Part shown: one piece after another, positions 27,552 through 50,620 of the stretch | Layout: the number at the start of each line of letters is the position of its first letter | Position numbering within the stretch: position 1 is the first letter of the stretch | NCBI GenBank assembly: GCA_964187785.1 | Contig: OZ076409.1 | Coordinates: forward strand, 79,610,001-79,674,000 | DNA from: Amphiscolops sp. MND2022 | Lineage: Eukaryota | Length of the DNA stretch: 64,000 nt | Direction: 5' to 3' | Program-made: the position numbers and the translations under genes | Notes under the pieces: model-generated | What the model was told of the DNA's origin: nothing | Databases searched by the model: none | What the model saw: only the letters and a program-made list of their open reading frames with translations

Positions 27552-27556
27552 ATTGA

Positions 27557-27788
27557 TGTTTCGATCAACTTAAGTTTCTATCTTTGTTCTAGAAACGTGG
27601 GAAAGATTTTACAAAAGTCAAGGTTGAATTGAAATCAACACAATGGAATGATGAGAGTTATGACAAAAGAGTGAATGAAATTTGAAAACCTGCATGAATA
27701 AATGATTCAGCATGTTTATAGTTATTGTGTATAAATTTGATTCGTCGCATGAAAATATGAGTCAATAAAGTACAAGTTCATTAGAACA
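27557..27788 (-). repeat. 5' LTR of Bel/Pao element, outer end shortened
   Basis: Matches the 3' LTR but lacks the terminal 15-17 nt (tttttagggcttcaa). Confidence 0.9.
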
Positions 27789-30300: not shown

Positions 30301-30720
30301 TGTGGCGGTTGAAATTAAAATAATTGTTGTCTGCCAGGTTCAATAGGAGACAGAGGTGATCAGACCCTGCGAGACCCTGTTGGAATGGGGGGTTGTGTTA
30401 TAAATGCCATTATCTGTGCAAGGTAACCTTCCAAGGGCTCAAACTCTAATTAATTGACCGTTTGATTGGTCTTTAAATTCTGATGAGAGAACAATAACTA
30501 GATGGTTATACTTCACAGCAACGAGATGCTAACACTTTGGTTTAGAAAAATGAATGGATTCGAATACCTTTCTTCTACTCGGTTTTAATAATTTTAAATT
30601 CAACTTTATCAAAGTAGTAGAATACAACGAGAGCTTTTTCATGATTCGGAGAGTCTCTTTTTAGAGCTACTGAGCGACGTGCTTGCTCACTCCAAGCAAG
30701 GAAAAGTCCTTCAAGTCTGC

Positions 30721-31280
30721 AAAAAGACGAGAACGTCTAAAGTCGTCGCTATATCTAAGGCTCAAAAAGCGCAAAACTTTTTTTAAAAAAACTTGAAATT
30801 TTCGAAAAAATTTTCTTTCGGAAAATGTCGCACACTTTCGGAAAATGTAGAAGGGGGCCCTTTGGGATTTATTAACATATATTTAGTTGCAAAATATCAA
30901 AAAACTTGAAGGGGGGACCCTTTTGGGACATTAAAAAATTTTCGAAAAAAAAGTCGCACAGTGCCGAAAAAAATCCAAAGGTTTCCTTGAAAACCCCTTT
31001 AGGCACGTCCGGTTTTGTAGGTTTCCTTGAAAAAGTAAAAAAGGGGGGACCCTTTACACTCATCCGGTTTTGTAGGCTACATTTAAAAAGTAAAAAAGCC
31101 AAAGGGGGACCCTTCAGTCCCGTCCGGTTTTGTAGGTTACGTTTAAAAAGTAGGAAATCAAAGGGGGGACCCTCTGGAATAACTTAGATGCGTTTCCCGG
31201 GTATTCGTTTAGTTTCCTTCAGTTGAACGCTAACGTTCGTCGCTTCGAATCTGTCTTAAAAAAGAAAAAAAACGAGTGAC
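30721..31280 (+). mobile_element. Helentron-associated-like repeat split by the Gypsy insertion (its 3' end resumes at 50621-50665)
   Basis: Family 5' end (agacgagaacgtctaaagtcg) and ~58-nt internal tandem units (aaaggggggaccc..ccggttttgtagg). The 3' end gactgtaatagtcggac..agcgccgactaaaaa lies on the far side of the LTR element. Confidence 0.72.
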
Positions 31281-32014
31281 TGTAACGACAAGCTCTCACC
31301 ATTGTCGCCGTAACCATAAGAGCAGGAGGAACACATGGCATGGGTATTTGCCCGGGACAGGCGCCCATGGCCATGAGTCCATTTTGCCTCCTTCGGGTAA
31401 GAAATGTCCCGTCAGAGGAGGATTCCGCTTCTTAAGAAGTGCTCGCCGGCCTGATCCAGTCTGTAATTGCTAACAGTAGCGCGCATTACGCTTTTTCTTC
31501 GGAACCAACGCTTAGATAGCCTTTAAAAAATGCAAGTGGTGGAAAGGAAAAATCAAGTTTTTTAGAAGTTACACAGGAAATCGAAATGAGTAGCTCACGA
31601 GCTGTTACAACAAGAAAATACGAAAATTACTACATATTTAGCACTTTTGAGGCAGCAATTAGCCGAGGACACAAGCACGGATGCTTGGTCAAGCCAATTG
31701 ACTCATTTTCGGTAATCACAGCGTCTTGTAACGCTTCGCTGAAGAAAGCACTGGCTAGAACAAAGTTCAGTCCGTTTTGACAGAAATTTGAGTCTTTTTC
31801 TGACAGCGGCCGTGTTTTTCTGCAGTCTTCTCGTTCGGTTGGGGTCTGCCCGGAGTCTTTTGCTCAAATTCTCTTCAATTCTGTGGGCAGGTACTTGAAT
31901 AAAGACACGCTGCCGTCCAGCGGAATATGACTTTTCAGTAGAGGGGATATAGTCCCTTGAACGAAATTTTCATCGAAATTTTCGAAATCGTGTACTCGAT
32001 AGGTAATCGCTACA
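31281..32014 (-). repeat. 3' LTR of Gypsy element
   Basis: TG...CA termini; differs from 49887-50620 at only 2 positions found by eye. Adjacent purine-rich GGGGAGTGTA (32015-32024) is a candidate PPT. Confidence 0.95.
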
Positions 32015-32158
32015 TACACTCCCCGGGGTCTAGTCTTGACGTCCCCGTCAAGTGTGGGTTGGCATCATCGAGTCTTTACCCAGGGTCATCTATGTCCCAC
32101 TGAGGAGGTAGAGTGCACATCAAGTAGCGCTGGGCAGTTCATTGGGACGTCGTCAAGT

Positions 32159-32352
32159 TGGCCTCGTGGAAGTGTTTTTGACCCAGCGTTGCTGCATTTT
32201 GATCAAATCAATACAACTTCGTATACAAATCTTATACGGCAAGGTTACTTTGTTTTGGAGTATGGCCTCGTGGAAGTGTTTTTGACCCAGCGTTGCTGCA
32301 TTTTGATCAAATCAATACAACTTCGTATACAAATCTTATACGGCAAGGTTAC
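32159..32352. repeat. Two identical 90-bp direct repeats (32159-32248, 32263-32352) in the Gypsy 3' UTR
   Basis: tggcctcgtggaagtg...cggcaaggttac is repeated with a 14-nt spacer. Confidence 0.92.
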
Positions 32353-33138
32353 AATTACTTTTTGTAGCCTGTCGTGAGCAATTCAGGCGTTAAAATTTCT
32401 TTTCGGCCTTTCATACAAAAAAATTTTTTATCGCCGTTAGTGTTAAAACTTGTTTTAAGGTCAACGACCATCACATGACAGTTCAAAATTTATTTTCCGA
32501 AGCTCGGGAGCTTCGCACTGCTTGGCGTTTGATAAAAGTTCTTTTGATAAGCAGTTGCCATAAAATCAACCAATAAGTACGGTCAATTTAAAATTTCTTT
32601 TGCGAGACTTACTCTCAATCCTATCAGGTAACTCAAAGAAAAAACAATGGTCGAGGTCCATCAATCTTTTTATTCTATCCATTTCTCATCTCTCTCCTTT
32701 TGTTTCCTTTTCCTTCATTTTTTTCCTTCTGTCTTTTTCGACAATAGCAACAGTGTGAACAATAACTAGTAACTAAAAGGGTGTAATAGCACCGAAAATT
32801 CAGAGCACGGAGTGCGCACAGCGCATCCATAAGGTAGCATAAGGTAGCTTGAAAAAGCACTAACTGCAAACACAAATTGCAAATTGAATATTGCATTTAA
32901 CTAAGGCAAGGCAAAGGCGTAGTTTTATGGTTGGGTTGCCGGTCCCAAAACGGAATAATGAGGAGGATGAAGCCCGGGGGCTTCATCTCCACTTGGAGGT
33001 TTTTACCCATGACCAATTGGCACTTCCAAAATCAAAGTTTAGCAACAACAGTGGTTGAAACCATGAGGTTTCGCAAAGGTTCATTTAGCACAGGACTATT
33101 GAAGTTTAAAACAGAATGGCAATAATGTTAGGTTTGTT

Positions 33139-36100
33139 TTACTGGGTGGCGGAGAAGTGACGCGCTCTGGGGGAGACGTCGGCTTTCGGTTGTGGTTCGG
33201 ACAGGGATCCTCTTCGCACATTTCCTTCTCGCAGGACTGGCCTTGGTTCGGCGCTGGCAGTTTCATGGGTCCTGGGAGTCGTGTTTGAGCCACTAGGGCC
33301 ATTTTCTGCAGCTACGGGAGTTGAGACTTCTGGCGAATGTTCTTGCGCTGCATTGGCTGAGCCGCTAATATTGGCAGAACTTGTGGTCGACGTGGAGGTT
33401 GGGATCTGCACATCCAATCTACTGGCATTAAACAGGTGTGGTAGATCTAGCGGTCTATTGCGGGTGGCAATGGGTCGTTTCTGCTTGGCACTGAGTTTCG
33501 GGCGTAGATCAGGTCGGCCCCAGAGCCCGCAGGCTCTGGACCAGTTGTCCCTGTTTTCATGTTCTATAATTTGCCTGGAGGCTTCCCATTCGGGTCCGAG
33601 GGGATCACTCAGCAGTTCCATGACATGGTAGCAGGTCTCCGCTGGCATGTCGCTTCCCATAGTGACCCTCGCCTCTGGATTCCAAACAGGCATTGTCTGT
33701 GGAGGGATGATCAAGCCTTTTAGGCGCCCTTGGCGTTCCTCCAGGGTCCTTGACATCCAAAACGCCTAGTTTGTAGTGATCGCGATAGGCGTACTGCTCA
33801 TTAAAGCCTTTCTCAACCATGCTGATTGGCTTTGCCCGGGCATAGCCGATGGGTCCTCGCCAGTACCTGGCTGGAAGCTTGATCATCTGAAAATTATACC
33901 CCTGGTTTGTGTGACCGCCCATGGCTTGTACGCATTCGGTCACGTACTTCCTGAGGTGTGCGAAACTCCAATTGAATCGCTGTGGGATTCCATGGTGATC
34001 TAGGGGCGAATTGTACCAATTCAGCGGGCCGTATTCGCGAGGTAAAGGGCACGCCTTCTTTGTCCGGGCTTTGAGAATGCCGGCCAGGTTTTCGTCCTGC
34101 TGCGTTCCGTTCTTTATGGTGGTATACATGCGGGGTATTAGCAGGAACAGCCCGCGTTCAAGCATCTGCTGATAGTTGTACGGTTTTACATTCTTCAGAA
34201 AAGTCAGGATGGATACTGTTGGTGTCTCCCAGGCGAGTCGCAGAGGCTTGGTGGGATAGCGAAGTATCCCGGTTGGGCCAAATATCGGAGTTAGCACGGG
34301 TGCTAACACCGGTACAAGGTCTTCGACTTCAGCCAAAGTGAAATCTGCCAGCTGGTTAGGTGTCAGAAATCCAGCTACCTCGGTCACCAGCTGACGTCCG
34401 TCATATAATGGTTGGTGCTTATCTACGCCCACGAAAAGTCCCGAGGCAAAGACCAGACTGCAGTATATCCAGTGATATAACGAAGTTGTCATGCGCTCCA
34501 GGTGAGCGGGATAATCCTGAGCGTCTTTTCGTTGTAGCAGCTTGGCTAAGGCGGTGAGGCCTGAGATATTGCCTCGCGCAATCACTAAATACGAAAATAG
34601 CCATTCCAGATTACACTCAGTAACCAGGTCGGTCAATATCATCATTGGGCCAGCTACGAAGCGTTTCTGCCCGAAAGTGAGCATCAGTGCAAAGAGTTCG
34701 TTTACTTGCATGGTACCGATAATCTTGCTGATTTCGATCAACCAGTGCTCGTCTAAGTCGAACTCAACTCGATTAACATCGGGACTCCAACCCAATCCCA
34801 AACAGATGGCAAATTGGTCGGTTGACATCCCAAGTTCTTTTGCAATGTCTGCTACGTTGGTAGTTTGCAGCCGCTGGTACCAAGCGTCGTAGGTGCTGCT
34901 GAAGGCTTGGATTTCAGCCTGAGTCTCGCTCGTCAATTTTGCAGCAATATACCTCATTCCCACTGATAATTGGTCAATAAGGAGGTCCTTGGCAAATTGA
35001 ACTCGCGGGATGGCTCGTTCCACTTCTCGGTCGCTGGGGATTTTGCTCATTATGGCAGTGACTTCCGCAAGATCAATTTTAATGCAAGTCTTTCCACCGG
35101 AGGAGCGCGCGCGCTCTATCCAGTTATTCAGGCGGATTGCCTCACATTCAGCCGTACTAGGTTCTGGGACTCGCCTTTCTCCGTTGTTGTTGAATACTAA
35201 CAAGCCCATACGAGTGCCGTGATCAAAATAGATGGCATCATCGATTGTCAGCTGCGCGTTCCCTGTCTTTTCCACTGACTGTAGCACTTTAGACACTGAG
35301 GCAACATACCCCATGTAGGAAAGCCAGGAGGGACGAAAGTCGTTGGAGCTGATCCGCATATTGGGCGCGCAGATCGCAAAGTCTATTTCTCTACATTTGC
35401 AAATTTCTGTTACCATGTAGATAAATCTCTGCAAGGCGGGAGGCCACTGGCAGAATCCTGGGGGTGTCACAAATAAGACTGGCACGTTGAGTTTATCCTT
35501 TAGGATATTTTGGGCTTTTTCCATGGCTCGGGCCACATTCAGTGCTGCGTTGCGTACTGTTGTTCGCTGTGCTGGAGTTGGATTTATGATTTCAACGTTC
35601 GCGATCTGGGCCATTAGTCCTTCACAGGCCATGTGATCGAAAACGTTACTGATGATCACTCTGCGTGGGGGTGGCTCTTTGAAGGTCCCCGTCATCTCGG
35701 GGTCAAACATGGTGACCAACACTTCAGCCATCTCGGGGATACGTGACAGCGGTAGAGTGAAAACCATCACGTCTGACAGCACATTGTCAATGGGGATATT
35801 TTTGAGGAAGGTCGAGTCTATAAGTTAGGCGAAGCGCGCACGCTGCAACCTTTCTTTTGGCATTGGTAGCTGGGCTTCGAGGTCACGGGCGTACCGTGCG
35901 TTGACCTCGAAGGTCTCTCCAGCATTGAGGAAGTATCGGTCAGCGAATTGCCCACGAAGGTCAATGTTGAGGGCGTCTAAGTAGTTGTCTTCTACGTTTG
36001 GCAGCATATTCATTGCCTTCCCTAGCCATGGCGGCTCATTGGTAGGGGTGTGGTCGGGGCGAATTGGACGATTCATGAATACAGGTACATTCGCCTTCTT

Positions 36101-37510
36101 CAATTTCGCATGCTCTTCGTCATTCGGAGGACACATGTTCTTTTCAAGCAGTCATTCGGGTGATACAATAACTGCCGATTCCCAGATACGTCGGGAGTCC
36201 TTGGTGATCAGCGTGCCCTTCGTGTTTTGCATTGGACTCAGGTACGTCGGTTGCTTTGTAAAGGTCCTCTTAGTTGGGTGTTGAATTGCCTGTTTGCGGA
36301 GTGGGGTTCCAGTTGGACCACTGTTGGTTATTTTCAATCCTGGGTAATCACCCATTATGTCCTTGACAGTTCGCTGAGATTCAGGGGTGCCTTGATAACC
36401 CACAGTTTGCTCCGTTTGTGGCTGTCTTGATGTAGAAGGCTTAGGAGTCGCTCGTTGAGCCAGCGACTCGCGTGTTGTAGACTGCGTGGATGGTGGCTGC
36501 GGCAGTCCTTGTTGTTCGCCTGTTGCGTTTGGTTGTGGCTGGGGTGAGGGAAGCACGGATGCTTCCGACACTTTTGATTTTGTTTGGTTTGGCGTTTTGG
36601 AGGTTGTGGCCTTCTCGTTGGAGATCTTTTTGTCGGGTGTTGGCTTGCTCGAGGGGCTGTCACGGGCAGTTAGTGGTTGTTGAGCACTCTTTTTTGTTGG
36701 AGAAGGGTCATTGCGTTTTCTGGAGGCAGGGCGGCTCTCTCCTCCCCCCTTTTGAGAAGAGCGGGAAGGCGAACGACTGCGCTCTACAGTCACGGTGCGG
36801 GAGTGTCCTGGCTGTTCAGACTGAGGATTGACGTGAGGAATAGTGATGGCATCTTGACTTGTTTGGGTCGAAGTGACGTTTTCGTTGCGAATAGTGACAG
36901 TGGGCAGAGCAATTCGGCGTAGTTCAGGCCAACACTGCTCCATGGATTGCATGAAATCAGCGTAATTAGGGTTGATAGCTACTGCTTGCAGTGCTGAGAT
37001 AACTGCTTGTTCTGCCATTGGTTGATTGGGCAAGTTAGGTACTGTAGGAGCAGAAGTGCGCGCACGCACTACTGTTTGTGGCGTTGATGCAGGAGGTGGC
37101 GGTGGAGGTGGAGGCGGGCAAGAAGGGATCTGTAGAGATCTGGTCTGATGGACTCCGCCATTCGCAGGACTGTATGAGATCGCTGCACGATCATCCGTAA
37201 AGTGATGTGTGAGATCATGGCCGTGCCACACTCCATCTTGATATGTCATGGATCGTTGGAACCCAGGAAAGCCTGAAGTAATAGATATCGTCAGCATAGG
37301 GGCTTGCACTTGTGACTCCATCTGGGCTATGATTGCCGCCACCCCGGCAACTGTAGCTGGCGACAGACCTTGGTCGAGTCTGTCTCGAATAAAAGCAATT
37401 TGTGGGGTACGCTGGACACGCGCAGTGTCGTAAACGCGTTGCCCCAAGGCAGGAGAGTCATCTGAAGACCTTGGAGGGACGTTGTTGCTTCCATCGTTAC
37501 CTTGGTTCAT
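33139..37510 (-). pseudogene. Gypsy accessory ORF2 (~1,450 aa reconstructed): Pro/Ser/Gln-rich disordered N-terminus, SGNH/GDSL-like domain, large unknown helical region
   Basis: ORFs 37510-36152, 36136-35825 and 35782-33605 share one frame, separated by single stops (36154 TGA, 35827 TAA). A 1-nt shift near 33760 leads into 33756-33139. SGNH-like blocks lie at ~35273-35845. Confidence 0.8.
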
Positions 37511-37723
37511 GACGGAAATTCTGAAAGAGTGCAGGTCGATTGTAGCACACTTGATAGTAGGGTAACACCATAGGTCATTTTAAGGGTAATACCAAGGAAA
37601 GTAATAGGATATCACAAATTAACAATGAAGGAAAAGGTAACGTATTAGTTTCAAGTAAACTCCGTGTCGATTCACTGAACTTAATCGAGCGGACAAAACA
37701 AAAAAAAGGAAAAACAAAAAGTT

Positions 37724-39790
37724 CTACGGAAAGCTAGCGACGCTTGCAATAGATACGTAAACGCGATCGTGAAGAACGACGGTCAGGGGCGTGTCAGCGA
37801 ATACGTCCATCAAACAGGTATAAAAGTCGAAAAGATTACGTATTGGGCGCTCAGGATCAATGATGGCAAAGTGTACTTCTATCGCCTCTAAGCGCTCGAG
37901 TAACGTTTTCAAATGATCAAGACATCCAAAGAGAATATCAGCGAGCATAGGGCAGCGAGGTCTAGCTCGTGTGATTAAAAGGTGGATAGTCTGAGGTTGG
38001 CCGTCTATCAAAGATGTGGGTAGCGTCACAATATTGCCAACCTCCGGTCGAAGTTGAAAGATTGCATCTGCACCATGCTCACGAATGACGTAACGAAGAG
38101 CGGCAGAATTAGTCTCTAGGTTTGCGGGACAACATAAAACAATGTGATGGGGAGTCTGCAGGAAGTCCGTATTGGCATACTGCACATAGTCAACCAATTG
38201 AGGTCTCACGGCTCCATGGTATACTAACTCTCGTCCGGGGTCTTTGGAGAGAGCATCGTCACATGTGTTCGGAAGGAGGCCTTTAATGGCGCCCAAGTCT
38301 TGCCACACAGATCGCGGCAACGATTGATTATCAATGTTAGCCCTGGACCATGTATCCAGTGCGTGCAGGGCTGATTGGAGTGATACAGGACTAGGAAATG
38401 AGTGTGTCCATTCGTCCAGGAATCGGATTCGTGAAAAGTTCGATAAGACTGCTATGATAAGTTCCAGCCACCATTCAAACTTAATTTTACCACGATATAG
38501 GTCTATGGTGTGGAAACAAGTGATTCTATCAGGAGAGGCCATCGTCCGCAAACTCTCCAGACAGGTGTTCAAGGTAGTGGGATAAACCAGGTCGGATACT
38601 TGTTTGGCCGTAATTAGTAGCCACCAGTTGCTTGTAGGCTGATAAACGTCTCCTGGTTTTGCGGTGACGTTATACTTGTCATATAAGAGGTCAGCAGGAA
38701 TACAGCGTACCATTTGGATAGGCTCTCGTTCATAGTTGAAAGGACCAAAAGCAATATTTGTAGGCAAAGGGGGAACAGTGATAGGTAAAGTGAATTCCAA
38801 ACCAATAAGATCATAGGTCCACTCCTTGAACCTTGGGCACGGGGCCTTTGCTATCGTAGAATCTTTCATTTTGGATAGGATATAGTCCACGGTATATGGA
38901 GTGTCGCTGCGTTGTAGCCCAGTATAAGTCTTCTCGGCTCGAATAACCAAACGGTCAACCGTGCCGCTTGGAAGCGATTTCTCTTGTTCACGTGCTAGCA
39001 GGACTCCCTGGGTTTAATTGGGAAGCCCGCGTGGACCATGTAGTTACATTCGCAGTCTCGTAGGCCACATGTTCCGCAACGATATCTGGGAATACGATTG
39101 CGTCGCAGTCAATAGCGAGCGTTGGTTGATTCTGACGGTGCTGCTTGATCTGAGGTAACCGCTGCGCTAGGGGCAGAAGAGTCAGTGTCCACAGATGGAG
39201 TGCGACGAACACGGGTAGAGATGTTAGGTCTGGCGTGTGTTGTACGAGGAGGTCTTCCTCTGGGACGGCCTCTTTTGCGAGCGCCTCTAATAGCACCTCT
39301 CTGTTGGTGGCCACGTGGCAGCGAGGCTCGCGGCCTCGCTCTGCCTGGCGGACGTCCCTGCGGTCCATGCCCTCTAGGAGCATTGGAGAGTTTCGTGGTA
39401 GTAGCTGCGTTGTTGTTGGTGGGAACTGTCGCAGGGGGAATAGATCCCTTTTCGTCATTGGTCATTGGTGTTTCAGCACCGTTGTCGTCTAAGGTTGGGT
39501 TGAGAACATTGTCATCGATTAGGGGCCAAATGGGAAAGTTACTCAACATATCCGTAAGAGATGGATTTGTCAATAATGGGGCGGATGTACCGGTCAGAGA
39601 GGTGCCGGCACTTTCGGTGGGTGCGTGGATAGTAGGATTCGGGGCCATGTCCAAGACGTCGGGCACTGCTTCATTCTCTGAGAATAGAGCCTCCATAGCA
39701 GGCAGTGGTGATATTGGTATTTCGGGAATAGGCGCAGGTTCATCCACATGTGATGACAAGATAGCACTCTCATCGGGATTAGCCTGAACA
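37724..39790 (-). pseudogene. C-terminal extension of Gypsy Pol: low-complexity linker, AT-hook, CxxC-x4-CxC motif, two OARD1/TARG1 (Poa1p)-like macrodomains
   Basis: Joined to integrase via a frameshift at ~39790, a TGA at 39111 and a frameshift at ~39005. Motifs RKRGRPRGRPPR and CGTCGLRDCEC. Two repeats align by eye to the OARD1 fold. Confidence 0.72.
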
Positions 39791-42700
39791 CTCGACAGGA
39801 GTAATATCAGAACGTTCGTCGTCAGACTCAGTCGAAGAATAGTCAAATTTTTGATAATGTAGGCGGCTGCCACCTGCGCGCATGCGTGTGCGCAACCGTG
39901 TGTCCATCCAATGTCTTTGTCGAGAAGGCAAAGAGGCATTACTGGCTTCTGAAATTGGTTCCTCCGCACGATAAGAAGGTTGCGAAGCATCGTCTCTCAC
40001 TTCATCGTGGGATTGTTCTGGATCAGGGTCCATGATGATAGCAACCTCGCCGTTATGCGCAGGAACAGCTGCCCATTCTGTTGGACCACCACGGTGCGGT
40101 TTCAATCGTTCGAAATGTACTTTCTGACCAGTGTCAAGTATGTAGACGCGTCCCTCTTGTAGTACTCGTGCTACTTTGTGAGGACCACGCCATGCTCTCA
40201 TCAATTTAGGAGATCCTTTTTGGGGAATGTATCGGCAGAATACCCAAACAGGTTCGCCCACTTCATAGGCTTTAGCACGAATTGCTCGGTCGTACTTCAA
40301 CTTTTGTCGCTGCTGGGCTTGATGCGTGTTACGACGGACTAAGTCATGAATCTCTTGCTGTCGAGCCAGCACATGTTCCACATAGGCTTCGTGTGATTCG
40401 AATGACTGAGTTGCAAATTCGGGATACAAGAAAGTCAGGGGTATAGCTTTTTCCATGCCTCTGGTCAGCATATACGGGGAGAACCCAGTAGTGGCATGAC
40501 ATGTGGTGTTGTATGCACCCATGACTTCATCTAAATACTGGTCCCAATCACGCATTCGTCTAGAGCAGAATACACGCAGTAGGGTGAGTAACGTTCGGTT
40601 TTGTCGCTCTACCAACCCTTGAGTCCTGGGGTGGCCAGCAGTTGAGGTTACTTTGGTCACTTGGGCGGCTTTCATAAACTCAGCAGATACTGCCGCGGTG
40701 AAGTTGGGAGCATTGTCTGACTGCATTCTCGTCGGCGTTCCATGGCGGGCAAACCATTTCTGCAACAACAATTTTGAAGTGGTCGCTGCATCATACTCAT
40801 CGTAGTTGCACGGTACAGCTTCTGCGAGCTTAGAGAAATGATCGATAATAACCAAGATCCCTGTGTTACCATCATCAGAGGGACAAATTTTCATGTGGTC
40901 ATATTGGACTAGCTCGTTAAAATAGCCGCTTTGGATATTTTTCAAGTGAAAGCGTACATCACCAGGCTTGTCACGTACTTGTTGACAAGTGATACATTGG
41001 CTGACGTATTGTCCAATGGTGCGGCGGATGCCTGGCCAAGTGTGGCGCTCTTGAATTCTGGCCAAGACTTTCGCGATGCCCTGATGTCCCATCGCGTCGT
41101 GGGCCTTGAACAATATCTCATGCTGATACAATTGGGGCATCACTATCATGCAGGGGCGTTCATGCAAAGCTCTTTGACTTTTGGAGTACTTTACACACAA
41201 AACCCCGTTGGCGTTTACCAGTAGGAGGTTCTTCTTCTGTTTGTGGTAGTTTTTGGCAAAGGCACGTACATTTTCCGGAAAGATGTCATGATCTATTGAT
41301 TCTTGCATTACCAATTTCTTGATAGCCAAGACGTGGACGTCACGGTTTTGTGCTAGTAGTAGATCTTTCAACCCATGGACTGTGTTAGCATGTTCATGCA
41401 ATTCCATCGATATGCTGTTTACCACAAACGCGGCTTGTTTTACGTGCTCTGGTGCAGTGCTAGTTGCTTGCTTTTCCGTCAGTGGATAAGTGGTTCTTGA
41501 TGGTACGTTAGCAGCATGCGTGGGGAGCAAATAGTCTCGTTGATATTCCTCGGTCAGTTCCAACCAATCCTCAGGATACTCTGGATAAAGTTCGGCAGGC
41601 AGTGCCAATTCTGGTTTTGGCAATGTAGGTAGGGGCGCTCTCATGGCTTCGTCGCGCATGATCGCACTTCGTTTGCTTTGTCCGCTCCTTCGCGTGGGAG
41701 CGGCAACTGTGGTTTCGGGTGAACTTTGGCTAGCCAACCTCTGCAAGTGTGCAGGCAATTCTGGGTGATTTGGTATCACACGTCCGTGGACATCAAACCA
41801 TGGGGCTAGCGGGAGTTTGTTGTATTCCTCTTGTGATAGGAAATCCCATTTGTCTGCAATTGCGGGTAAACCCTTTAATTGCTTTTCGTGTTTTTTGTAA
41901 TCATTTGTTCGTTTGCTAAGACCATCAGCATTGCGATGTTGCGTTCTGGGTCGGTGCTCAATACCGAAGTGATATTTTTCAAGAGCCATAATCCATCGAC
42001 CGATAATCGCCTGATCCATCGAATATGTCTTTAGCCAGGATAGGGCCTGATTGTCGACCCTCAGTGTGAATTTTCGTGGACAGAGATAGCTGTGGTTTTT
42101 CAAGATGAAATAGTATGCAGCGTACATTTCCAGTTTTGGGGCTCCATACTTTGCTTGCGTAGAGGTTAACTTTTTGCTTCCGAATACAATCGGTCGCAAT
42201 TTGCGACTCTCAGGTGGTCCTTGCCATTGGTGAAGAATACCTGATATAGCTACACCACTAGCATCGGTGTCAAGAACAAATTCGCTTTCAGTGTCGGGTT
42301 GCGCCAGAGCAGTGGCTTCCATTAGTGCCACTTTGATGCTGTTAAAGGCTCGCTGCTGCTCCTCCCCCCATAAAAATGAAGAGCCTGCGCCCGTCATCGC
42401 ATGTAAAGGGGCAACTAGCTTTGCATGCCATGGGATAAAATCCCGATAGTAGTTGGCAAAACCCAAGAAACTTTGCAATTCAGTTTTGGTTCGCGGGATA
42501 TCCCAATCTTTCAGCTTGGCGACAGCTTTTGGATCTGGCTTGATACCATCTGCGGATACAACTCGGCCCAAATATTTGATCTCCGATTTCATAAAATCAC
42601 ACTTGGAGACTCTCATTTTGAAGCCGGCCTCACGCAGGCATTGGAATACTTCGCGTAGTCTATCCATGTGATCCTCGATGGTCTCGGTAGCAATCACAAT

Positions 42701-43531
42701 GTCATCGATATAGGCCATAACCATGCTTCCTTCGCGGTTCACTATTCTTTGTAGCGCTCGCGCTATTGCCCGTTGAAATGTTGCTGATGCGTTACACATA
42801 CCAAAAGGCATACGCCGCCACTCAAATAACCCAAGTTCACAAGCGAAGGCAGTCTTTTGACGATCGGCTTTTCGGACAGGAATTTGCCAGAATGCCCATG
42901 CCAAGTCAATACTAGTATAGATTTTGGCTTTGCCCAATCGGGATAGACTCTCATCGATACGTGGCAAGGGATAAGCGTCTTTGATGGTCACTTCATTAAG
43001 TGGTCGAAAGTCACAACAGAATCGCAATTCACCACTCTTCTTTTTGACCATAACAATTCCACTCGCCCAAGGGGATAGGGAAGGTTGTATCAATCCCAAA
43101 GCTAGCAAGTCACGGACTTCTTGGTTAGCACGTTCTGCCTTGTCAGGCGACATTCGTCTTGCACCTTCGCGGTGGGGTATAGCCCCTGGCTCTACTTCCA
43201 CCGGGTGCTTAGCGATTTTACATTTGCCAATGTCGGCTTTGAATTTCATAAACAAATCATCAAATTCGTTCAAAAGTTTACTAAGCGTGTCGCTGGCGGT
43301 CGATCCCCACAAACCGCGCACCTCGTCGAGTTGTGCTTCCGGGCCCGGTATCGGAGCCATTAGCGCCGGATCGGTTCGTTTTTTTATTTCGCGCTCGGAC
43401 AAGCCTAGTTCTGACGGTTCGGTAGAGGACAAAAACTCAAATTCAGATGAAGAACTATATTCAGAAGAAGAATCAAGGTTCATCTGTTCGTAAACTTTAC
43501 AAACATAATTTGCATTTGACTGCAGTTTCAC
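39779..43531 (-). CDS. Gypsy Pol core: reverse transcriptase, RNase H, integrase
   Basis: Motifs SPWASGIV, RFCCDFRPLN, MPFGMCNA, YIDDIVI, FLGFANYYR, DTDAS, VDNQAL, NADGLS, the HHCC zinc finger, QYDH..SDNA..GLVERQNRTL and WRGPH. Confidence 0.95.
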   Translation of the reverse strand: MKLQSNANYVCKVYEQMNLDSSSEYSSSSEFEFLSSTEPSELGLSEREIKKRTDPALMAPIPGPEAQLDEVRGLWGSTASDTLSKLLNEFDDLFMKFKADIGKCKIAKHPVEVEPGAIPHREGARRMSPDKAERANQEVRDLLALGLIQPSLSPWASGIVMVKKKSGELRFCCDFRPLNEVTIKDAYPLPRIDESLSRLGKAKIYTSIDLAWAFWQIPVRKADRQKTAFACELGLFEWRRMPFGMCNASATFQRAIARALQRIVNREGSMVMAYIDDIVIATETIEDHMDRLREVFQCLREAGFKMRVSKCDFMKSEIKYLGRVVSADGIKPDPKAVAKLKDWDIPRTKTELQSFLGFANYYRDFIPWHAKLVAPLHAMTGAGSSFLWGEEQQRAFNSIKVALMEATALAQPDTESEFVLDTDASGVAISGILHQWQGPPESRKLRPIVFGSKKLTSTQAKYGAPKLEMYAAYYFILKNHSYLCPRKFTLRVDNQALSWLKTYSMDQAIIGRWIMALEKYHFGIEHRPRTQHRNADGLSKRTNDYKKHEKQLKGLPAIADKWDFLSQEEYNKLPLAPWFDVHGRVIPNHPELPAHLQRLASQSSPETTVAAPTRRSGQSKRSAIMRDEAMRAPLPTLPKPELALPAELYPEYPEDWLELTEEYQRDYLLPTHAANVPSRTTYPLTEKQATSTAPEHVKQAAFVVNSISMELHEHANTVHGLKDLLLAQNRDVHVLAIKKLVMQESIDHDIFPENVRAFAKNYHKQKKNLLLVNANGVLCVKYSKSQRALHERPCMIVMPQLYQHEILFKAHDAMGHQGIAKVLARIQERHTWPGIRRTIGQYVSQCITCQQVRDKPGDVRFHLKNIQSGYFNELVQYDHMKICPSDDGNTGILVIIDHFSKLAEAVPCNYDEYDAATTSKLLLQKWFARHGTPTRMQSDNAPNFTAAVSAEFMKAAQVTKVTSTAGHPRTQGLVERQNRTLLTLLRVFCSRRMRDWDQYLDEVMGAYNTTCHATTGFSPYMLTRGMEKAIPLTFLYPEFATQSFESHEAYVEHVLARQQEIHDLVRRNTHQAQQRQKLKYDRAIRAKAYEVGEPVWVFCRYIPQKGSPKLMRAWRGPHKVARVLQEGRVYILDTGQKVHFERLKPHRGGPTEWAAVPAHNGEVAIIMDPDPEQSHDEVRDDASQPSYRAEEPISEASNASLPSRQRHWMDTRLRTRMRAGGSRLHYQKFDYSSTESDDERSDITPVECSG

Positions 43532-46500
43532 TTGATTGTCCGGGGAAAATTTGGGGGATGGCTTTATGAATCATCGTCACGGGTACCGCGGTTCCCAAAA
43601 GGGTGCCCTTTTTGATCCGCTGTACGTTGCTGGTGAGATTTCCTAAACTGACGTAAAGGAAGCCAGTTTCCCCCACGGTCGCCACGGTGTCCTCTAAAAA
43701 GATGGCGTTTTTTAACATTCGGTTAGGTGTTTGAAAATTGATTAGCACGGTTCGAAACATGAAAGGTTCTAAGTTGTCTACAAGCAATCTAGCGCGTAGT
43801 ATCGCGCGTTCAAAAGGTTGCAACACTACGTCCTGTGCAATCGCTACCGACGAATTGAGCGATTCGTTACTTACTTGCGTGTGGGCATGGTACCACACCG
43901 GTTCGGAGGGAGCTCGGACAATGACCTTCATCGCGGTTAGATCTACCAAGACTTGATAAGCTCTTAGGAAGTTTCTGCCCAGGAGGAAGTCTTCCACTCC
44001 CATAGCGTCATCAACTACCACGAAGTTAGTTTCTAATTCATAGCCTCCCAATTGGAATTTGACTTTCTCCGCTAGACCAAAAGTTTAGATCGTTTTCCCA
44101 TTCGCGGCATATAAGTCAATACCATAAGGTCGTAAGAGTGTGCCAGTGCGCACGGCGACTCGATTGTAGGCTGAGAAGGTGAGGATGGATACTCCTGATC
44201 CAGTGTCTATTAGACCACGTAATGGCACGGGAGCAGCATCGGGAACCACGAATGAAACCACGAGCGACGCACGCTCATCGATTCTCGCTTCACCAATTGG
44301 TTCTTGAGCATCAATGTTATAGCAGCGCAGCTCTTGCGGTCCCAAGCAGATTCCAGGAGGAAACGCGTCAGTAATAATAGTGGCGCCAAAACGCATGTCA
44401 ACACCATCTATGCAGACGTTGACTGGAATCGGAGAATAGGCATGATACGTCGAAGTGACACCTTTCACTTGCCACTCTTCCGGTTGGGGCAGAGTCAATT
44501 GCCGGCAATTCTCGTTTGCGGTTATCTCTTCTATCAGAGCGTCTATGGTGAGTTCTGGGCGGGTTTCTCTCTCAACCGCCAACAGTAGTCGGGCAGACAT
44601 GATAGTGCGTCCCGAGGGATCAAAAGTAGTTGGCTCTGGGTTCGTCTGGATTTGGATTTTGCCACATGTGACGGTAAGGGGCGTCGCCACGTGAGCGGCT
44701 TCAGCAGGGCGTAGCATGAGTACCATTTCACTGTCACTCATTGTTTGAGAAGCAGATGGCTGTTCAGCCCAGAGGCTGTAGGCCAAATCCTCATGTACTG
44801 GAACATTTTGGCATTGTGATGCAGAGTGTTCGGTCATGCCACAGTTAACACAGAATACGGGGCCAGAACATGCAGAGGCCACATTGTTCTCACACAGGTT
44901 CACTCGCTCTTCGGGTGCAGCGCGAGCCGCGGGTTTCCTTGCTAGGTCTCGATTTGAGCATTCCCTCGCAAAGTGACCTGGTAGTCCACAGTTGAAGCAT
45001 GCTCCTTGGGGAATCACTCTCGCTGGTTGCTGCTGTGCAGGAGCCTGTTTTACCGATGCAGGGCCTGGTGGGGCCATCTGGGGCTTTGCCTCTCGCTGTC
45101 CTTGGTTTGGAGGTAGCACGTTTTGTGGTAGGCCTGGTGCCGGGTGAACCAATTTCCCTGGCACGAAAGGGTGAGGCCTCGATCTCATTGCATACCTTGG
45201 GTCGTAAGGTTTTGACGTGTTTGGGCGATGCCGTTGCAATTGTCTCGTGGTGAATCTCAGGGATTCTACAGTTGGTGGCTCAGTCAAATACGTCTCCGCA
45301 GCGTACACCACGGCCAACTCTTGTCGCAGCGTCGGGTCATTGACGCCATCTATAAAACGTTGCAGGATCTCATAACGACGTGTAGTGATAGGCTCGTCTG
45401 GGAAACCTTGGGTGCGCAGACCTTCCAATGCGTCCAAGAATTGCATCCAATCCTCTTTTTCCTGTTGGACACGAGACATGAAGGTTAGCCTGACGTGCAT
45501 GCGGTTTCCACCGGTTCCAAACCTGCTGGCCAAGAGAGAGAATACCTTGTCGGGCTCGTCTCGTTCAGGTTCAGATTTGTTGATTATATAATTTCTCGCC
45601 TCCCCTTCCAGGTGGTCGATGATAGCCCAGGCTCTGTCGATCTTTGGAGATTTTGCATGCACCCTTTCTAGAAATCGCTTCATCACTGGGAGCCATCCAT
45701 CGACAGAACCATCTTTAGTGCCTTTGTATACCGTAGGGCGGACCCTAGTTTGATCTCGATTAGCAATCAGCGGCGCCAGTTCCTTGGACATGGCCTTGGA
45801 TATTGCCTCGGTAAACCTGAGTTGCTCCGGTGATATAGGCGCTTCTTCAGTGATAGCTGGTGGCGGGATACTGCTGCCTCGCGTTGAGTTGACAGAGTCA
45901 TCGGTGTTCTCGGGGAGAGTCACTTCTCGGCGTCGAGTGCTGCTGGCGCATGGGTTGCCCGGGGGCAATTCGTCGTTCGCGGTTTGGAATTCTGCAGCTG
46001 ATTCTCCCAAAGTTGCATTTGCTGTTTGGAAGGTGCTGGTGACTTCAGTTAGCTCGTTTGTGCGTGTGGGCTCTCGCAGGCCGGTGATACCCATGCTTGA
46101 AGTGTCGATAGTTATCACCTCGCACGTTGGTTCTTTCTTGTGAGTTTTGGTCGTGGGTGGAATATATTTTGTTGATACCACAGACGGGATAAATTTCGTC
46201 GAGGTTGATGCGGCCTCTCCATTTGAGACCAGAGTTTGTGGCAAAGGCGCGTACCTGGCCAAGTGCTGTTTAGAGCCAGATGGGTTTGTTGCAGTCGTCA
46301 CACTCTTTTTTGGCTTGAGGGAGACGCTTTTCATGGGTTTTGGCAGTGACACATCAGTGTCTTGCAGCAACTCTTTGATAGTGTTGCTTGCTGGTGCGGG
46401 TCGAGGTTGGATATTTTTCAACATGGTGCCCATTGCTTGTATCTGTGAACATACCTCTTGCAATTGAGCTTCCATGCGCACCTCTCTTTCGGTCACCATG

Positions 46501-47417
46501 TCCTTCATTTCGGCCATTCGATAACCCATGGCATCCATTCGGGCGGCCTGAATTTCATGTCCTTGCGCTTGTCGCTCAGTTGATGTTCGCAGTTCAGTTT
46601 GCACGGCTTCTATTTCCTCCATTATTGATTGGTGCTCTCTATCGCACCTTGCCTTGCGCTCAGACAGTTGTGAAGCAGCTTGCTTCACGCCTATCTGAGC
46701 ATCTAATAGAGCTTTGCGCGCTTTCGCTGCTTCATGTACGGCTCGATATGCCGAAGATCGGGCAGATGCAGCTTTTGATGAGGGTGAGGATGAGCGCGAG
46801 TCGCCATGAGGTCCTGTAGTGCCAGTCTGTGCTAGTAGAGCTGGAGGCCGTACTTGCTTACCCTTCCCAGATGCTCAGGGAGCCGTAGCTTCTTGAAGAC
46901 GTGCCCTGGCATAATTCATACCCCCGACATACGACATTTGTTGCAATATCTCTGCTGTGTTCGCAGTGCTCTCGCTTGCCATGCTGGGAGCCTTGAGTTG
47001 TCCAGTGGCATTCAAGCAACTCATTTCAGCTTCTTCCTCAGCGTTTGTCCTGTTGGAGTTGGGCCATGTTCCTGCTTCGTCAGTACCGAAAGGTGTGACG
47101 GCTACTTTGGTCAGTTCTTGTAACCATTTGGACGTGTGCGCCTGACTTCCTGTTTCGTCGGCTGAACCTCCGATATCATCGGTAGTCCTGGCGATCGGCT
47201 TGGCCTGATACTTCTCCGATGCGTCGTCTGACATAGGGTCTGAAAAATCGGGTTCCATAACGAAACTGTCATCAGTTGGCCAATCTTCCTCCCTGGGGTC
47301 TGAGGTTAGGTCTGATATTGCACTGAGATTTGTCTCTCACCCCGTTGGGTCTGGTGTTTTCGATGCTTCAGCGCGTCGCAACGGGTCCTTCCTCCCCCTT
47401 TTGAAAGATTAGAGCAT
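43497..47417 (-). pseudogene. Gypsy Gag-protease (coiled coil, capsid-like region, two CCHC knuckles, protease, dUTPase-like domain) with in-frame stops
   Basis: One frame from ATG 47417 with stops at 47411, 47339, 46877 and 44087. Motifs YKG..DG.VDGWL, CFNCGLPGHFAREC, CVNCGMTEHSASQC and LIDTGSGVSIL...FLLGRNFL. Frameshift to the RT frame near 43530. Confidence 0.88.
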
Positions 47418-49852
47418 CGCCGGGTGTTCGTGCGGCTTAATGTTCTCGTTATAGAATTCCAAAGGTTACGCAAACTGTTAGTCTTCATGATTTCACACGT
47501 CTCGAAAAAGTCAAAAATCGATCTAGGGGTCGTACCGGCGTGAAACTTACACAGCGCGTTGATACCGTGGTGTGGGGCCGGAAACCGTGCGTTTGGGGCT
47601 TGCGGAACAGCTAATTCGCAAACAATCGAGTTTTTAGACAATTTTTGAGTTTTTCAGATTTCTTTATAAATGACTAAGATGCCTCGAGCGCAACGTCTAA
47701 TCGTCGGAGACACTTGAAAATTGGCCACCTGACCTTGTGGTAGGTGTACTACACGATAGCAAAATCAAATCTAAGCTAAGGTTCTTATTTCAAGATTCAG
47801 GCTGATTCGGACGTTCGGTACCCTTAGTCACCAAGATACATCAATTTTCATGCTTATTTCAAGATTGTGCTTTACTGAAAAAAAGCTAGCGGGCTCAAAA
47901 TTTGCAAAACAACGTAGTATCTGGTACAAATGATAGAAATGAACGGCAATTCAACCTCGTTTTTTAATTAAGGTACTCGGATCACTCAGGAAAAAATTGA
48001 AAAATTACCCTCTAGGCCCAACTTTTTGAGTGGTACGTTTTTCTATTTTCTCACCAAGTACCGGTTGGATTGACACGAAACTTTGTAGCTACAGTCGATG
48101 AGCGTGCCCAATGCCGGTGAAACCATCAAATGAAAGCGCGGACGCTTATTTGAGGTTCCGACCTTACTTGGACAACACTTATGAAAAAAACACAATTTTG
48201 GACTACTTTTTTCACAAATTGGCTAAGAGGGTCACCTCAAAAAGTGGTAGGGCTGAAAAAAATGGGACCTACGTGTTGCCCCACTACTCGTAGTACTAGG
48301 ATAAACCCTCGATTAGGTGTGCCCGTTAAACACGAGGCACCGACAGTCCGTCAGTTTTGGAATATTTCGGCAGTTTTACAGTCCCCTGAAGTTGAAACGT
48401 TAGAGAACTTTTTTCGACTTTGGTGAAAGTTACGTCCACCAAATTTTCGGCACTAGCGTTATTTTTAGTGGTGGTTATGAAAATGCAACCACCTTTTGGC
48501 TAAGGTCCAAGAATCAATGACCCGACCTCAGAGATAGCTCAGAGATAGTCCGGATTTTAGGAAAATGGAAGTTTTTCAGTGCATTTTTCTACTTTTCTCA
48601 GCACTGAAAAGGAATTTTGGGATGCGGTCTTCACTGTAGATCGTTAAATTTACTGAATAAACTGAAAATAATAGCCCGGGGGCTGCTCTAAGCGTAAAAG
48701 TGTTCGTCAATAGTCAAATTGGGTTTCTTCTAAGAGTACTATAGAAAAACCTCAAAATCACAGTTCTCGTAACTTTTTTCAAGAAGTAGTGGTTATAATT
48801 ACCAAAATGGGTATTGTTGGGTACCGGCAGGTGTACCCCAACCTAATTGCAACCATACGGGGGTGTTTAAAAGCTTCTATACAAGTTCCCCCACAAATTC
48901 AAAGTGCTAAAAATGTTCAGTCTTCCAAAAACGGGGTTTTTTCCTCACAAAATTTATACTAAGTGCCTTTTCGGGCAACTTTGAGCAGTTCGTCGCGTTT
49001 TTTGCGAACTCATTAGAGTCCTGAGCTACTTTTATTTAATTTCTGCAGGTGTGTGGCTAGCACCAAGAGCGCTCGCGCTCATGTAGGTGTTTCGCCTCAA
49101 AATGGCCAAATTTGGCACTTTTCGTCGAAAATACGTGAAAAAACGCACTTTTTTCGCACAAAACAGGTGCAAAAGCACACACATAGTTACAGAAGGCTCG
49201 TAAAAACATTGGCAAGTGGTCGTACACAAAATTTTGAGCAACCCAAAAAATTTTTTCAACCTGACTCAAAAATATTATACAACCCGGACTGACGAGTCGT
49301 GTCTTCTCGTTCTTTTTGCTCATCACCCAGAACAGCTAGAGACAAACGGGTTGCACCGTTAGACACGTCAGCATTTGTAGTACGTCTCCACCAAATTTCA
49401 TTCCTCTAGGTTGCCTGTACGAGAAATGTGATCGGTGAGTCGTAAAACTCGTTTCGGCAGATTGTAAGATTCGTCTGAGCAAGGATCGTCCTCTTCTCAA
49501 CACTCACTTCATTGGTCATAAAAAGCTGAAAAAGGCTAGAAAACACCTGCTAACACTTCTAGCAGCCTTCCAACGGCTTGCTAGACCAATTTTATGAGTG
49601 ACCCGTTAAGAGGGTAGGCTATTTCGATCGTTACCTGTCAACTACTGAAAAAGCATGAAAATCACAACATACAGCGCTTTTTTACAAGATTTACCTTTAT
49701 CCACCGGGCTTGAAGTCTTCAATAACACACACAGGGTAAAAACGTGGAAAAACTCTGCTTCTCTCTTCTTTCCATCAGAGTCGGGTCGTACTTGGCGTCA
49801 ATCACCAGAGGGTCGGCTATTTTAAAACCATTAAGGGAAGCACTTCGAAGCG

Positions 49853-49870
49853 ATCCCTCTGTGGTCGCCA
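49853..49870 (-). promoter_or_regulatory. Primer-binding site of Gypsy element (tRNA-Arg-like)
   Basis: The 18-nt TGGCGACCACAGAGGGAT resembles the complement of the 3' end of eukaryotic tRNA-Arg(UCG) (..ATCCCT..GTGGTCGCCA). Confidence 0.7.
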
Positions 49871-49886
49871 TAAAATGTGTTCTCCA

Positions 49887-50620
49887 TGTTACGACAAGCT
49901 CTCACCATTGTCGCCGTAACCATAAGAGCAGGAGGAACACATGGCATGGGTATTTGCCCGGGACAGGCGCCCATGGCCATGAGTCCATTTTGCCTCCTTC
50001 GGGTAAGAAATGTCCCGTCAGAGGAGGATTCCGCTTCTTAAGAAGTGCTCGCCGGCCTGATCCAGTCTGTAATTGCTAACAGTAGCGCGCATTACGCTTT
50101 TTCTTCGGAACCAACGCTTAGATAGCCTTTAAAAAATGCAAGTGGTGGAAAGGAAAAATCAAGTTTTTTAGAAGTTACACAGGAAATCGAAATGAGTAGC
50201 TCACGAGCTGTTACAACAAGAAAATACGAAAATTACTACATAATTAGCACTTTTGAGGCAGCAATTAGCCGAGGACACAAGCACGGATGCTTGGTCAAGC
50301 CAATTGACTCATTTTCGGTAATCACAGCGTCTTGTAACGCTTCGCTGAAGAAAGCACTGGCTAGAACAAAGTTCAGTCCGTTTTGACAGAAATTTGAGTC
50401 TTTTTCTGACAGCGGCCGTGTTTTTCTGCAGTCTTCTCGTTCGGTTGGGGTCTGCCCGGAGTCTTTTGCTCAAATTCTCTTCAATTCTGTGGGCAGGTAC
50501 TTGAATAAAGACACGCTGCCGTCCAGCGGAATATGACTTTTCAGTAGAGGGGATATAGTCCCTTGAACGAAATTTTCATCGAAATTTTCGAAATCGTGTA
50601 CTCGATAGGTAATCGCTACA
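49887..50620 (-). repeat. 5' LTR of Gypsy element (may extend to 49876)
   Basis: Direct repeat of 31281-32014. Confidence 0.95.

What the first reader, a model, noticed from the sequence alone, without database searches (positions are those of the whole stretch)
31281..50620. 19.3-kb Gypsy retrotransposon with an unusual accessory toolkit (macrodomains, SGNH/OSK-like ORF, tandem protease)
Seen: the element is much longer than typical Gypsy elements, has a ~2.4-kb leader, a reconstructable Gag-Pol of ~3,200 codons (47417-37724) and a second ~1,450-codon ORF, and has no Env-like ORF. Known: Gypsy extras are usually a chromodomain or Env. Inference: this is a lineage carrying modules for chromatin or ADP-ribose reading and for RNA or lipid binding. 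It is the best candidate for an undescribed system in this window.
Basis: partly seen in the sequence, partly recalled or inferred. Interest (0 to 1): 0.88.

Follow-up and report, generated by a model that had tools for sequence, protein, structure and literature searches.

The report
Giant Gypsy lineage, three-base target duplications
This is a young, 19-kb jumping-gene family, present in hundreds of copies, whose insertions leave an unusually short three-base footprint and which carries conserved extra proteins built from apparently disabled enzyme folds, pointing to an integration and RNA-handling mode not found in the papers searched.

Summary
The element is real: a 19.3-kb Ty3/Gypsy retrotransposon with 734-bp LTRs (2 mismatches), one ~3,250-codon Gag-Pol frame and a 1,456-aa ORF2. 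This copy is broken, but the family has about 280 copies and all 22 scored hits carry the whole 33-39.8 kb segment, so it is not a nested insertion. Ten of ten ORF2 loci share the gene order, with dN/dS mostly 0.03-0.16. ORF2 holds an SGNH fold (model pLDDT 87, Z 12.0) that seems to lack the catalytic His and is no closer to OSK than to esterases. One degenerate TARG1-like macrodomain is supported; a second macrodomain and the tandem protease are unresolved. No Env signature. Best reading: an autonomous lineage with an altered integrase geometry, a DNA/chromatin-tethering integrase tail and a spliced, non-catalytic accessory ORF. New variant of a known kind.

The parts
50621..50623 (-). 5' copy of the 3-bp target-site duplication (GTC)
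49887..50620 (-). 5' LTR, 734 bp, TG..CA
49871..49886 (-). 16-nt spacer between LTR and primer-binding site, same length in all readable family and sister-family copies
   Evidence: 11 of 11; 9 of 9 readable, 10 examined
49853..49870 (-). 18-nt primer-binding site complementary to tRNA-Arg(TCG) 3' end
   Evidence: (255 genomic matches of the tRNA-end pattern, control 0)
47489..49852 (-). long non-coding leader (2.4 kb with spacer and PBS)
37724..47488 (-). ORF1, single-frame Gag-Pol (~3,250 codons in the family); broken in this copy by frame changes near 47400, 43523, 39804, 39020 and stops at 47339, 46877, 44087, 39111
44800..45710 (-). Gag core: weak PNMA (capsid-type) match and zinc knuckles
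   Evidence: zf-CCHC E 3e-7; PNMA E 0.024, below cut-off
44290..44720 (-). conserved pre-protease segment, possibly a degenerate protease repeat (unresolved)
43880..44250 (-). aspartic protease (DTG at 44207)
   Evidence: (PF13975 E 1e-5 on P0004)
43580..43870 (-). post-protease beta-rich segment, dUTPase-like by position and look only
   Evidence: 13 of 50 shuffles reach the score
41972..43048 (-). reverse transcriptase (YIDD) and RNase H
   Evidence: best solved relative Ty3 Gag-Pol, E 4e-102
40150..41137 (-). integrase: HHCC, core, GPY/F-type motif WRGPHKV
39240..39360 (-). AT-hook-like RGRP motifs in a disordered linker
   Evidence: 5 of 5 database proteins; Pfam AT_hook only E 1.2
39045..39087 (-). 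invariant CxxC-x4-CxC motif, putative zinc site
38396..38722 (-). tail domain 1, possible degenerate macrodomain repeat (unresolved), dN/dS 0.05-0.10
37766..38170 (-). tail domain 2, degenerate TARG1/OARD1-type macrodomain
37521..37535 (-). splice-acceptor-like site 10 nt before the ORF2 ATG
33139..37510 (-). ORF2 (1,456 aa in the family); broken here by stops at 36154 and 35827 and a frame change near 33760
37133..37423 (-). conserved ORF2 N-terminal domain of no known family
35252..35851 (-). SGNH-fold domain of ORF2, canonical catalytic set apparently incomplete
33460..34963 (-). conserved helical and C-terminal regions of ORF2, no family or structure assigned
32015..32030 (-). polypurine-tract region; purine run ends about 4 nt before the 3' LTR
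31281..32014 (-). 3' LTR
31278..31280 (-). 3' copy of the 3-bp target-site duplication (GTC)

Best explanation
An autonomous, recently active Ty3/Gypsy lineage that copies itself in the usual way but with three lineage-wide changes. (1) Shown: a genomic RNA of ~18.6 kb encodes one Gag-PR-RT-RH-IN polyprotein; the primer site matches a host tRNA (Arg here, Lys in sister families) and lies 16 nt inside the LTR. Inferred: the linear cDNA carries a 16-nt extension beyond the U5 CA that has to be removed. (2) Shown: insertions duplicate 3 bp, always with A or T in the middle. Inferred: the integrase joins the two LTR ends with a 3-bp stagger, a tighter geometry than the usual 4-6 bp, and its long C-terminal tail (AT-hook-like motifs, Cys4 site, one or two macrodomain-derived folds that lost the ligand loops) works as a DNA/chromatin tether or intasome scaffold in the place where chromoviruses have a chromodomain, not as an ADP-ribose hydrolase. 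(3) Shown: ORF2 sits in the env position behind an acceptor-like site, is conserved and has an SGNH fold. Inferred: it is made from a spliced mRNA and is a non-catalytic RNA/particle-handling factor (export, protection or packaging of the very long unspliced RNA, like CERV of Cer1), not an envelope.
For: Copy number and youth; LTR pairs differ by 2-9 nt in 10 of 11 family copies read. Shared order in 10 of 10 ORF2 loci, RT 82-98% identical; element length 19.1-20.7 kb in 8 of 8 measurable. dN/dS 0.05-0.11 on the two tail domains, 0.03-0.07 on the SGNH domain. 3-bp duplication 25 of 25 readable among 31 examined, middle base A/T 25 of 25; controls in the same genome 5 bp (one other Gypsy, one BEL). 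PBS offset and primer switch. Macro loops replaced. SGNH fold; Arg in 26 of 30 rows where block V has His, by my block reading. Acceptor-like site exactly 105 nt before the aligned ATG in 6 of 6 sister stretches, 10 nt in this family. CERV precedent: PMC10309623 (abstract, section 15).
Against: No function was measured. No link between the tail and the 3-bp stagger was tested; the stagger may be set by the integrase core alone. The tail could be cut off by the protease. The invariant Ser, Asn, Asp and His of the ORF2 domain (20 of 24, 33 of 33, 33 of 33, 30 of 33) could form a different active site. The structural search gave no residue pairs, so the His-to-Arg assignment is an inference. The tail model was unusable (pLDDT 35). 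Pyrimidine-rich YAG sites are common in AT-rich DNA. dS is above 1 in most pairs and the pairs are related, and none includes the window's own family.
Confidence: 0.5

Rival explanations
1. The tail is an ADP-ribose reader or eraser that counters PARP-based host defence or targets ADP-ribosylated chromatin.
For: Domain 2 is TARG1-derived; two other Gypsy families here keep ordinary TARG1-like domains at two different polyprotein positions; strong constraint; DPER is invariant in 9 of 9 rows.
Against: Both glycine-rich loops are replaced; no tail reaches a Pfam Macro match. That these loops bind the diphosphate is recalled knowledge.
Confidence: 0.2
2. ORF2 is a lipid-binding Env substitute that moves particles across or along membranes, as proposed for retroelement GDSL esterases.
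For: Env position and acceptor-like site; SGNH fold; proposal in PMC5408684 and PMC6431247 (passages); one conserved hydrophobic stretch scores 1.6-2.1.
Against: No signal-peptide-like N-terminus and no clear membrane anchor; PMC5408684 itself leans to an auxiliary, non-env role for such ORFs.
Confidence: 0.15
3. The ORF2 SGNH domain is an active hydrolase with a rewired catalytic set (Ser of DST plus the invariant N-x-x-D-H), for example removing acyl groups from host defence proteins or metabolites.
For: Ser, Asn, Asp, His are near invariant down to ~25% identity; lowest dN/dS of ORF2; the best fold matches are active esterases.
Against: Block II Gly, block III GxND and block V DxxH are not found in canonical form; geometry of the residues was not measured.
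Confidence: 0.13
4. The extra 6.8 kb is a nested insertion or neutral captured cargo.
For: This copy is riddled with stops.
Against: 22 of 22 scored copies carry it, 10 of 10 diverged loci keep the order, dN/dS far below 1.
Confidence: 0.02

Closest known systems
Ty3/Gypsy LTR retrotransposons (Ty3 as best solved relative)
   Same: LTRs TG..CA, tRNA primer, order PR-RT-RH-IN, zinc knuckle, GPY/F-type motif
   Different: 19 kb, 3-bp instead of 4-6-bp duplication (all TSDs in Table 1 of PMC3286476 are 4-6 bp), PBS 16 nt from the LTR, ~750-aa integrase extension, 1,456-aa second ORF
Bdelloid Vesta elements with GDSL/SGNH ORF3 (PMC5408684)
   Same: SGNH-fold ORF downstream of pol in place of env
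   Different: there the S, G, N, H residues are intact; here they appear altered and the domain is 200 aa inside a 1,456-aa protein with other conserved, unassigned domains
Burro/GYPSM1 and Ogre giant Gypsy elements (PMC6431247)
   Same: very long element with many accessory domains
   Different: Burro extras are BIR, BCL2, MATH, ankyrin and an in-frame env before the protease; none seen here; internal region here is 17.9 kb, below that review's 20-kb bar
TARG1/OARD1 macrodomain; macro ORFs of fish endogenous retroviruses (PMC4977317)
   Same: domain 2 aligns over 125 columns to TARG1-like domains of other Gypsy families in this genome
   Different: ligand loops replaced, fused behind integrase with AT-hook-like and Cys4 motifs, perhaps duplicated
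CERV of C. elegans Cer1 (PMC10309623)
   Same: large accessory protein of a Gypsy element with single-frame gag-pol, from a spliced mRNA, with an enzyme-like fold not expected to be active
   Different: analogy only: no sequence or fold comparison was made; CERV has a G-protein-like domain, ORF2 an SGNH fold

Membership tests
Ty3/Gypsy | domain order PR-RT-RH-IN between LTRs | tested here: met
Ty3/Gypsy | RT-RH closest to Ty3/Gypsy among solved proteins | tested here: met
   Ty3 E 4e-102, caulimovirus/retrovirus entries 1e-45 or weaker
Ty3/Gypsy | tRNA primer-binding site after the 5' LTR | tested here: met
   displaced by 16 nt
Ty3/Gypsy | typical 4-6-bp target-site duplication (usual trait, not a strict criterion) | tested here: not met
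   3 bp in 25 of 25 readable insertions
a named Gypsy clade (412/mdg1, Mag, Osvaldo, CsRn1 etc.) | RT groups with the clade's reference elements | not testable with these tools
   no named reference set; local tree only shows the lineage as its own clade (100/97), 35% RT identity to the nearest local family sampled
SGNH/GDSL hydrolase | SGNH fold | tested here: met
   model pLDDT 86.8; VIA Z 12.0, rmsd 3.1, 156 aligned to 3hp4, list dominated by SGNH entries; Foldseek E 5e-4 to 4iyj and 1u8u
SGNH/GDSL hydrolase | block I Ser | tested here: met
   Ser in 20 of 24 rows, in DST instead of GDS
SGNH/GDSL hydrolase | block II Gly, block III GxND, block V DxxH | tested here: not met
   Pro 27 of 30, N-x-x-D-H, Arg-Pro 26 of 30; block positions assigned by spacing, not by a residue-level structural alignment
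OSK domain | closer to OSK than to other SGNH folds | tested here: inconclusive
   5a4a rank 37, Z 9.4, rmsd 4.0, 152 aligned, against Z 12.0 for the best esterase; no PF17182 hit on ORF2
OSK domain | RNA binding without catalysis | not testable with these tools
   needs assay
TARG1/OARD1 macrodomain | profile homology of tail domain 2 | tested here: met
   Atlas features 0.90-0.92 to ~150-aa viral clusters, one with PF01661 on 14% of members
TARG1/OARD1 macrodomain | glycine-rich loops (MxAGIA, GCGLD) | tested here: not met
   alignment
TARG1/OARD1 macrodomain | profile homology of tail domain 1 | tested here: inconclusive
   8 of 100 shuffles reach it; 1 of 100 against domain 2; reversed control E 0.033 vs 0.022
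tandem aspartic protease | second protease repeat with D(T/S)G | tested here: inconclusive
   Asp kept in 6 of 6 rows but DTG is not; 11 of 100 shuffles reach the score
Env glycoprotein | signal peptide and C-terminal membrane anchor | tested here: not met
   hydropathy scan only; no Pfam hit
dUTPase-like domain between PR and RT | profile homology | tested here: inconclusive
   13 of 50 shuffles reach the score

The most novel reading that the evidence does not exclude
An undescribed deep branch of animal Ty3/Gypsy elements with its own integration chemistry: the integrase makes a 3-bp staggered cut and deals with a 16-nt cDNA overhang, guided by a tail of pseudo-macrodomains, while a dead-esterase protein acts as a Rev/CERV-like factor for a 19-kb genome. 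Size and duplication length put it outside the default filters of LTR finders, so it may be widespread and unseen.
Probability: 0.35. Interest if true: 0.82.

Novelty: new variant of a known kind. Interest (0 to 1): 0.64.

Why it matters
The duplication length reflects the spacing of the two integrase active sites on target DNA, so a lineage-wide 3-bp stagger is a natural variant for testing how intasome geometry is set. Standard pipelines ask for 4-6-bp duplications and LTR distances up to 11-15 kb (parameters in PMC10025401 and PMC11889832), so such elements would be filtered out although this one family alone has about 280 copies (roughly 5 Mb if full length). The lineage also shows an element keeping two enzyme folds under strong constraint after losing their canonical active-site motifs, next to families in the same genome that keep the ordinary macrodomain, which makes the question of what captured domains do for retroelements testable with isolated domains.

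Tried and rejected
Single-sequence fold of the ORF1 tail: pLDDT 35, fold searches uninformative (no macrodomain listed, which excludes nothing). Profile searches of solved structures with tail and ORF2 alignments: nothing meaningful. Atlas on the 739-aa ORF2 piece: no usable hit. Pfam and PHROGs on tails and ORF2 relatives: no family at cut-off. Profile-profile tests of the ORF2 domain against esterases from this genome were not significant (8 of 60, 10 of 50 and 1 of 100 shuffles; three mis-framed rows and three near-duplicates were dropped between 85 and 88); only the fold settled it. Expression: no RNA holder listed. Viral and metagenome contigs: no related locus. Earlier findings: none listed. 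Control duplications: 6 stretch pairs from other Gypsy families gave one readable case; four gave no LTR pair and one lacked an end. A longer duplication hidden by conserved extra LTR bases was rejected: flanks vary freely and only 3 bases match. A frameshifted gag-pol was rejected: the frame is continuous in 32 of 150 copies. Literature searches that found no description of this architecture or of a 3-bp LTR duplication; Repbase, GyDB, Dfam and subscription journals are outside the library, and no supplements were read.
Full report
Observation. The window holds an LTR element on the minus strand from 50620 to 31281. The LTRs are 734 bp, start TG, end CA and differ at 2 positions. Pfam finds a zinc knuckle, RT, RNase H and integrase in Gypsy order, the protease on a family protein, and the best solved relative is Ty3 Gag-Pol (E 4e-102). 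The leader is 2,399 nt to the ATG at 47488. This copy is dead: ORF1 has four frame changes and four in-frame stops, ORF2 two stops and one frame change.

It is a family, not an accident. All 22 scored genomic matches (of 1,970 candidates; the window is one) cover the whole 33.0-39.8 kb segment at 98-100%. The last 158 aa of ORF1 match 150 of 150 scored places at 97-100%, and 32 of these lie in an open frame of 3,200 codons or more, so Gag-Pol and the tail are one frame. The exact PPT/3'-LTR junction occurs 280 times. I picked 10 loci from two searches with distant ORF2 relatives; one proved to be the same family, nine were sister families. All 10 show PR, post-PR segment, RT, RH, IN, Cys4 motif, two tail domains and ORF2 in the same order, with RT 82-98% identical and the ORF2 SGNH region 35-46% in the nine. 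Eight measurable elements are 19.1-20.7 kb. A profile search found 607 ORF2-like proteins at E 0.001 or better; among the 150 listed the most distant are ~24% identical. One of these (P0225) has no match above 30% in this genome, so the lineage probably exists in another organism; its genomic context could not be read. Between sister families dN/dS is 0.05-0.11 for the two tail domains (15 of 16 values computable) and 0.03-0.07 for the ORF2 SGNH region (7 of 8), 0.04-0.16 for the helical and C regions (11 of 16), and 0.08-0.38 for the N domain and linker. Most dS values exceed 1, the pairs are related, and none includes the window's own family.

The integrase tail. After the GPY/F-type motif come a disordered linker with AT-hook-like RGRP motifs (5 of 5 database proteins), an invariant CxxC-x4-CxC motif and two compact domains. 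A Macro search of the genome hit two other Gypsy families, one with the domain after integrase and one between RNase H and integrase; the former matches human OARD1/TARG1 at E 1e-27. Against their profile, tail domain 2 aligns over 125 columns (probability 85, E 6.7e-6; 0 of 100 shuffles), and the Atlas gives ~150-aa viral clusters at 0.90-0.92, one with Macro on 14% of members. Both glycine-rich loops are replaced; that they bind the ADP-ribose diphosphate is recalled. Domain 1 aligns in the same register but 8 of 100 shuffles do as well (1 of 100 against domain 2). So one pseudo-macrodomain is supported and the second is plausible but unproven. The tandem protease (11 of 100 shuffles) and a dUTPase-like segment (13 of 50) are unresolved.

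ORF2. No Pfam family reaches cut-off and profile-profile tests against local esterases were at best borderline. A 200-aa region folded from a 24-row alignment with pLDDT 86.8; Foldseek and VIA return SGNH/GDSL hydrolases almost throughout (best Z 12.0, rmsd 3.1, 156 aligned). The Oskar OSK domain is rank 37 (Z 9.4), so the fold is SGNH but not specifically OSK. Ser is kept (20 of 24 rows), but where blocks II, III and V should have Gly, GxND and DxxH the family has Pro, N-x-x-D-H and Arg-Pro; I assigned these blocks by spacing. An inactive fold is the simplest reading, but the near-invariant Asn, Asp and His leave a rewired site open. There is no signal-peptide-like start and only a moderately hydrophobic internal stretch. 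An acceptor-like site lies 10 nt before the ATG here and exactly 105 nt before the aligned ATG in 6 of 6 sister stretches, which fits a spliced mRNA; this is not shown.

The target duplication is 3 bp: 25 of 25 readable insertions among 31 examined (18 of this family including the window, 7 of sister families; 6 lacked a readable end). A chance 3-base match has probability about 0.02 per insertion, and the middle base is A or T in all 25. Another Gypsy element and the BEL element in this window have 5-bp duplications (only these two controls were readable). The 18-nt primer site matches the host tRNA-Arg(TCG) end but lies 16 nt inside the LTR in 11 of 11 family copies and 9 of 9 readable loci; five of those nine use a tRNA-Lys(TTT) site at the same offset, so the offset outlived a primer switch. 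In the control Gypsy element a TGG-starting site follows the LTR directly.

Mechanism. Shown: autonomy of the family, single-frame Gag-Pol, displaced primer site, 3-bp stagger footprint, constrained tail and ORF2, SGNH fold. Inferred: a 16-nt cDNA overhang; a tighter integrase geometry; the tail as a DNA/chromatin tether or scaffold; ORF2 as a spliced, non-catalytic factor for the long genomic RNA, by analogy to CERV (PMC10309623, abstract and section 15 read). I give this package 0.5; ADP-ribose reading 0.2, Env substitute 0.15, rewired enzyme 0.13, neutral cargo 0.02.

Comparison and novelty. It is a Ty3/Gypsy member; its clade could not be placed without named references (local tree, eight near-identical family copies left out). 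Each module has precedent: SGNH third ORFs with intact catalytic residues in bdelloid elements (PMC5408684; abstract, first part and passages read), macro ORFs in fish endogenous retroviruses (PMC4977317, one passage), giant Gypsy elements (PMC6431247, passages). All duplications in Table 1 of PMC3286476 (section 9, part 1 read) are 4-6 bp, and LTR finders were run with 4-6 bp and 11-15 kb limits in PMC10025401 and PMC11889832 (passages). Passages of PMC4695847, PMC10741241, PMC5718144, PMC6338049, PMC2774666 and bioRxiv 2021.11.30.470311 added nothing on this architecture. Ten searches found no description of this combination or of a 3-bp LTR duplication; Repbase, GyDB, Dfam, subscription journals and supplements were not seen and may hold it. 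Verdict: new variant of a known kind, interest 0.64.

Noticed in passing
window 21026-27786, minus strand: BEL/Pao element with 233-bp LTRs (98%), a 1,713-aa open frame (22337-27478) and a 5-bp duplication CATGC.
   Followed up: partly
L024-L026, L028 and L027, L029-L032: Two other Gypsy families carry ordinary TARG1/OARD1-like macrodomains, one after integrase, one between RNase H and integrase; their RTs are 22-35% identical to this element's, suggesting repeated capture or relocation.
   Followed up: partly
L075-L082: A high-copy Gypsy-like family with a degenerate dUTPase-like domain before RT in ~1,730-codon frames (148 of 150 scored PF00692 hits are weak ones of this kind).
   Followed up: no
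G000:C9 near 57.54-57.58 Mb and G000:C7 near 5.22-5.26 Mb: Tandem arrays of hundreds of tRNA-Arg and probably tRNA-Lys genes (255 and 644 pattern matches), the two primers used by this lineage; one unit is called tRNA-SeC(TCA) by ARAGORN.
   Followed up: partly
window 32159-32352: A 104-nt tandem duplication in the 3' UTR that the ten compared copies lack.
   Followed up: partly
window 37724-47488: This copy has 11 coding breaks although its LTRs differ by only 2 nt and it is ~99% identical to other copies.
   Followed up: no
G000:C1 29073934 and 29091744: Two PPT/3'-LTR junctions 17.8 kb apart on one strand, possibly a tandem or nested pair.
   Followed up: no
window 28494-31173 and 53875-54720: Degenerate GGGGACCC-rich direct and inverted repeats and 22-, 60- and 104-nt tandem units on both sides of the insertion; it may sit inside an older repeat.
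   Followed up: no
window 17861-18553, 52598-53215, 61786-62466: Host gene exons: NAAA/acid-ceramidase type (PF15508) and DUF229.
   Followed up: partly
L053-L072, L126-L131: Many dispersed ~300-aa SGNH esterase frames, some passing the OSK cut-off, probably ORF1 of non-LTR elements; a possible source pool for ORF2.
   Followed up: partly
P0235 (MEO1519123.1): An ORF2 relative is deposited as a bacterial MAG protein on an 816-bp contig, probably host contamination.
   Followed up: no
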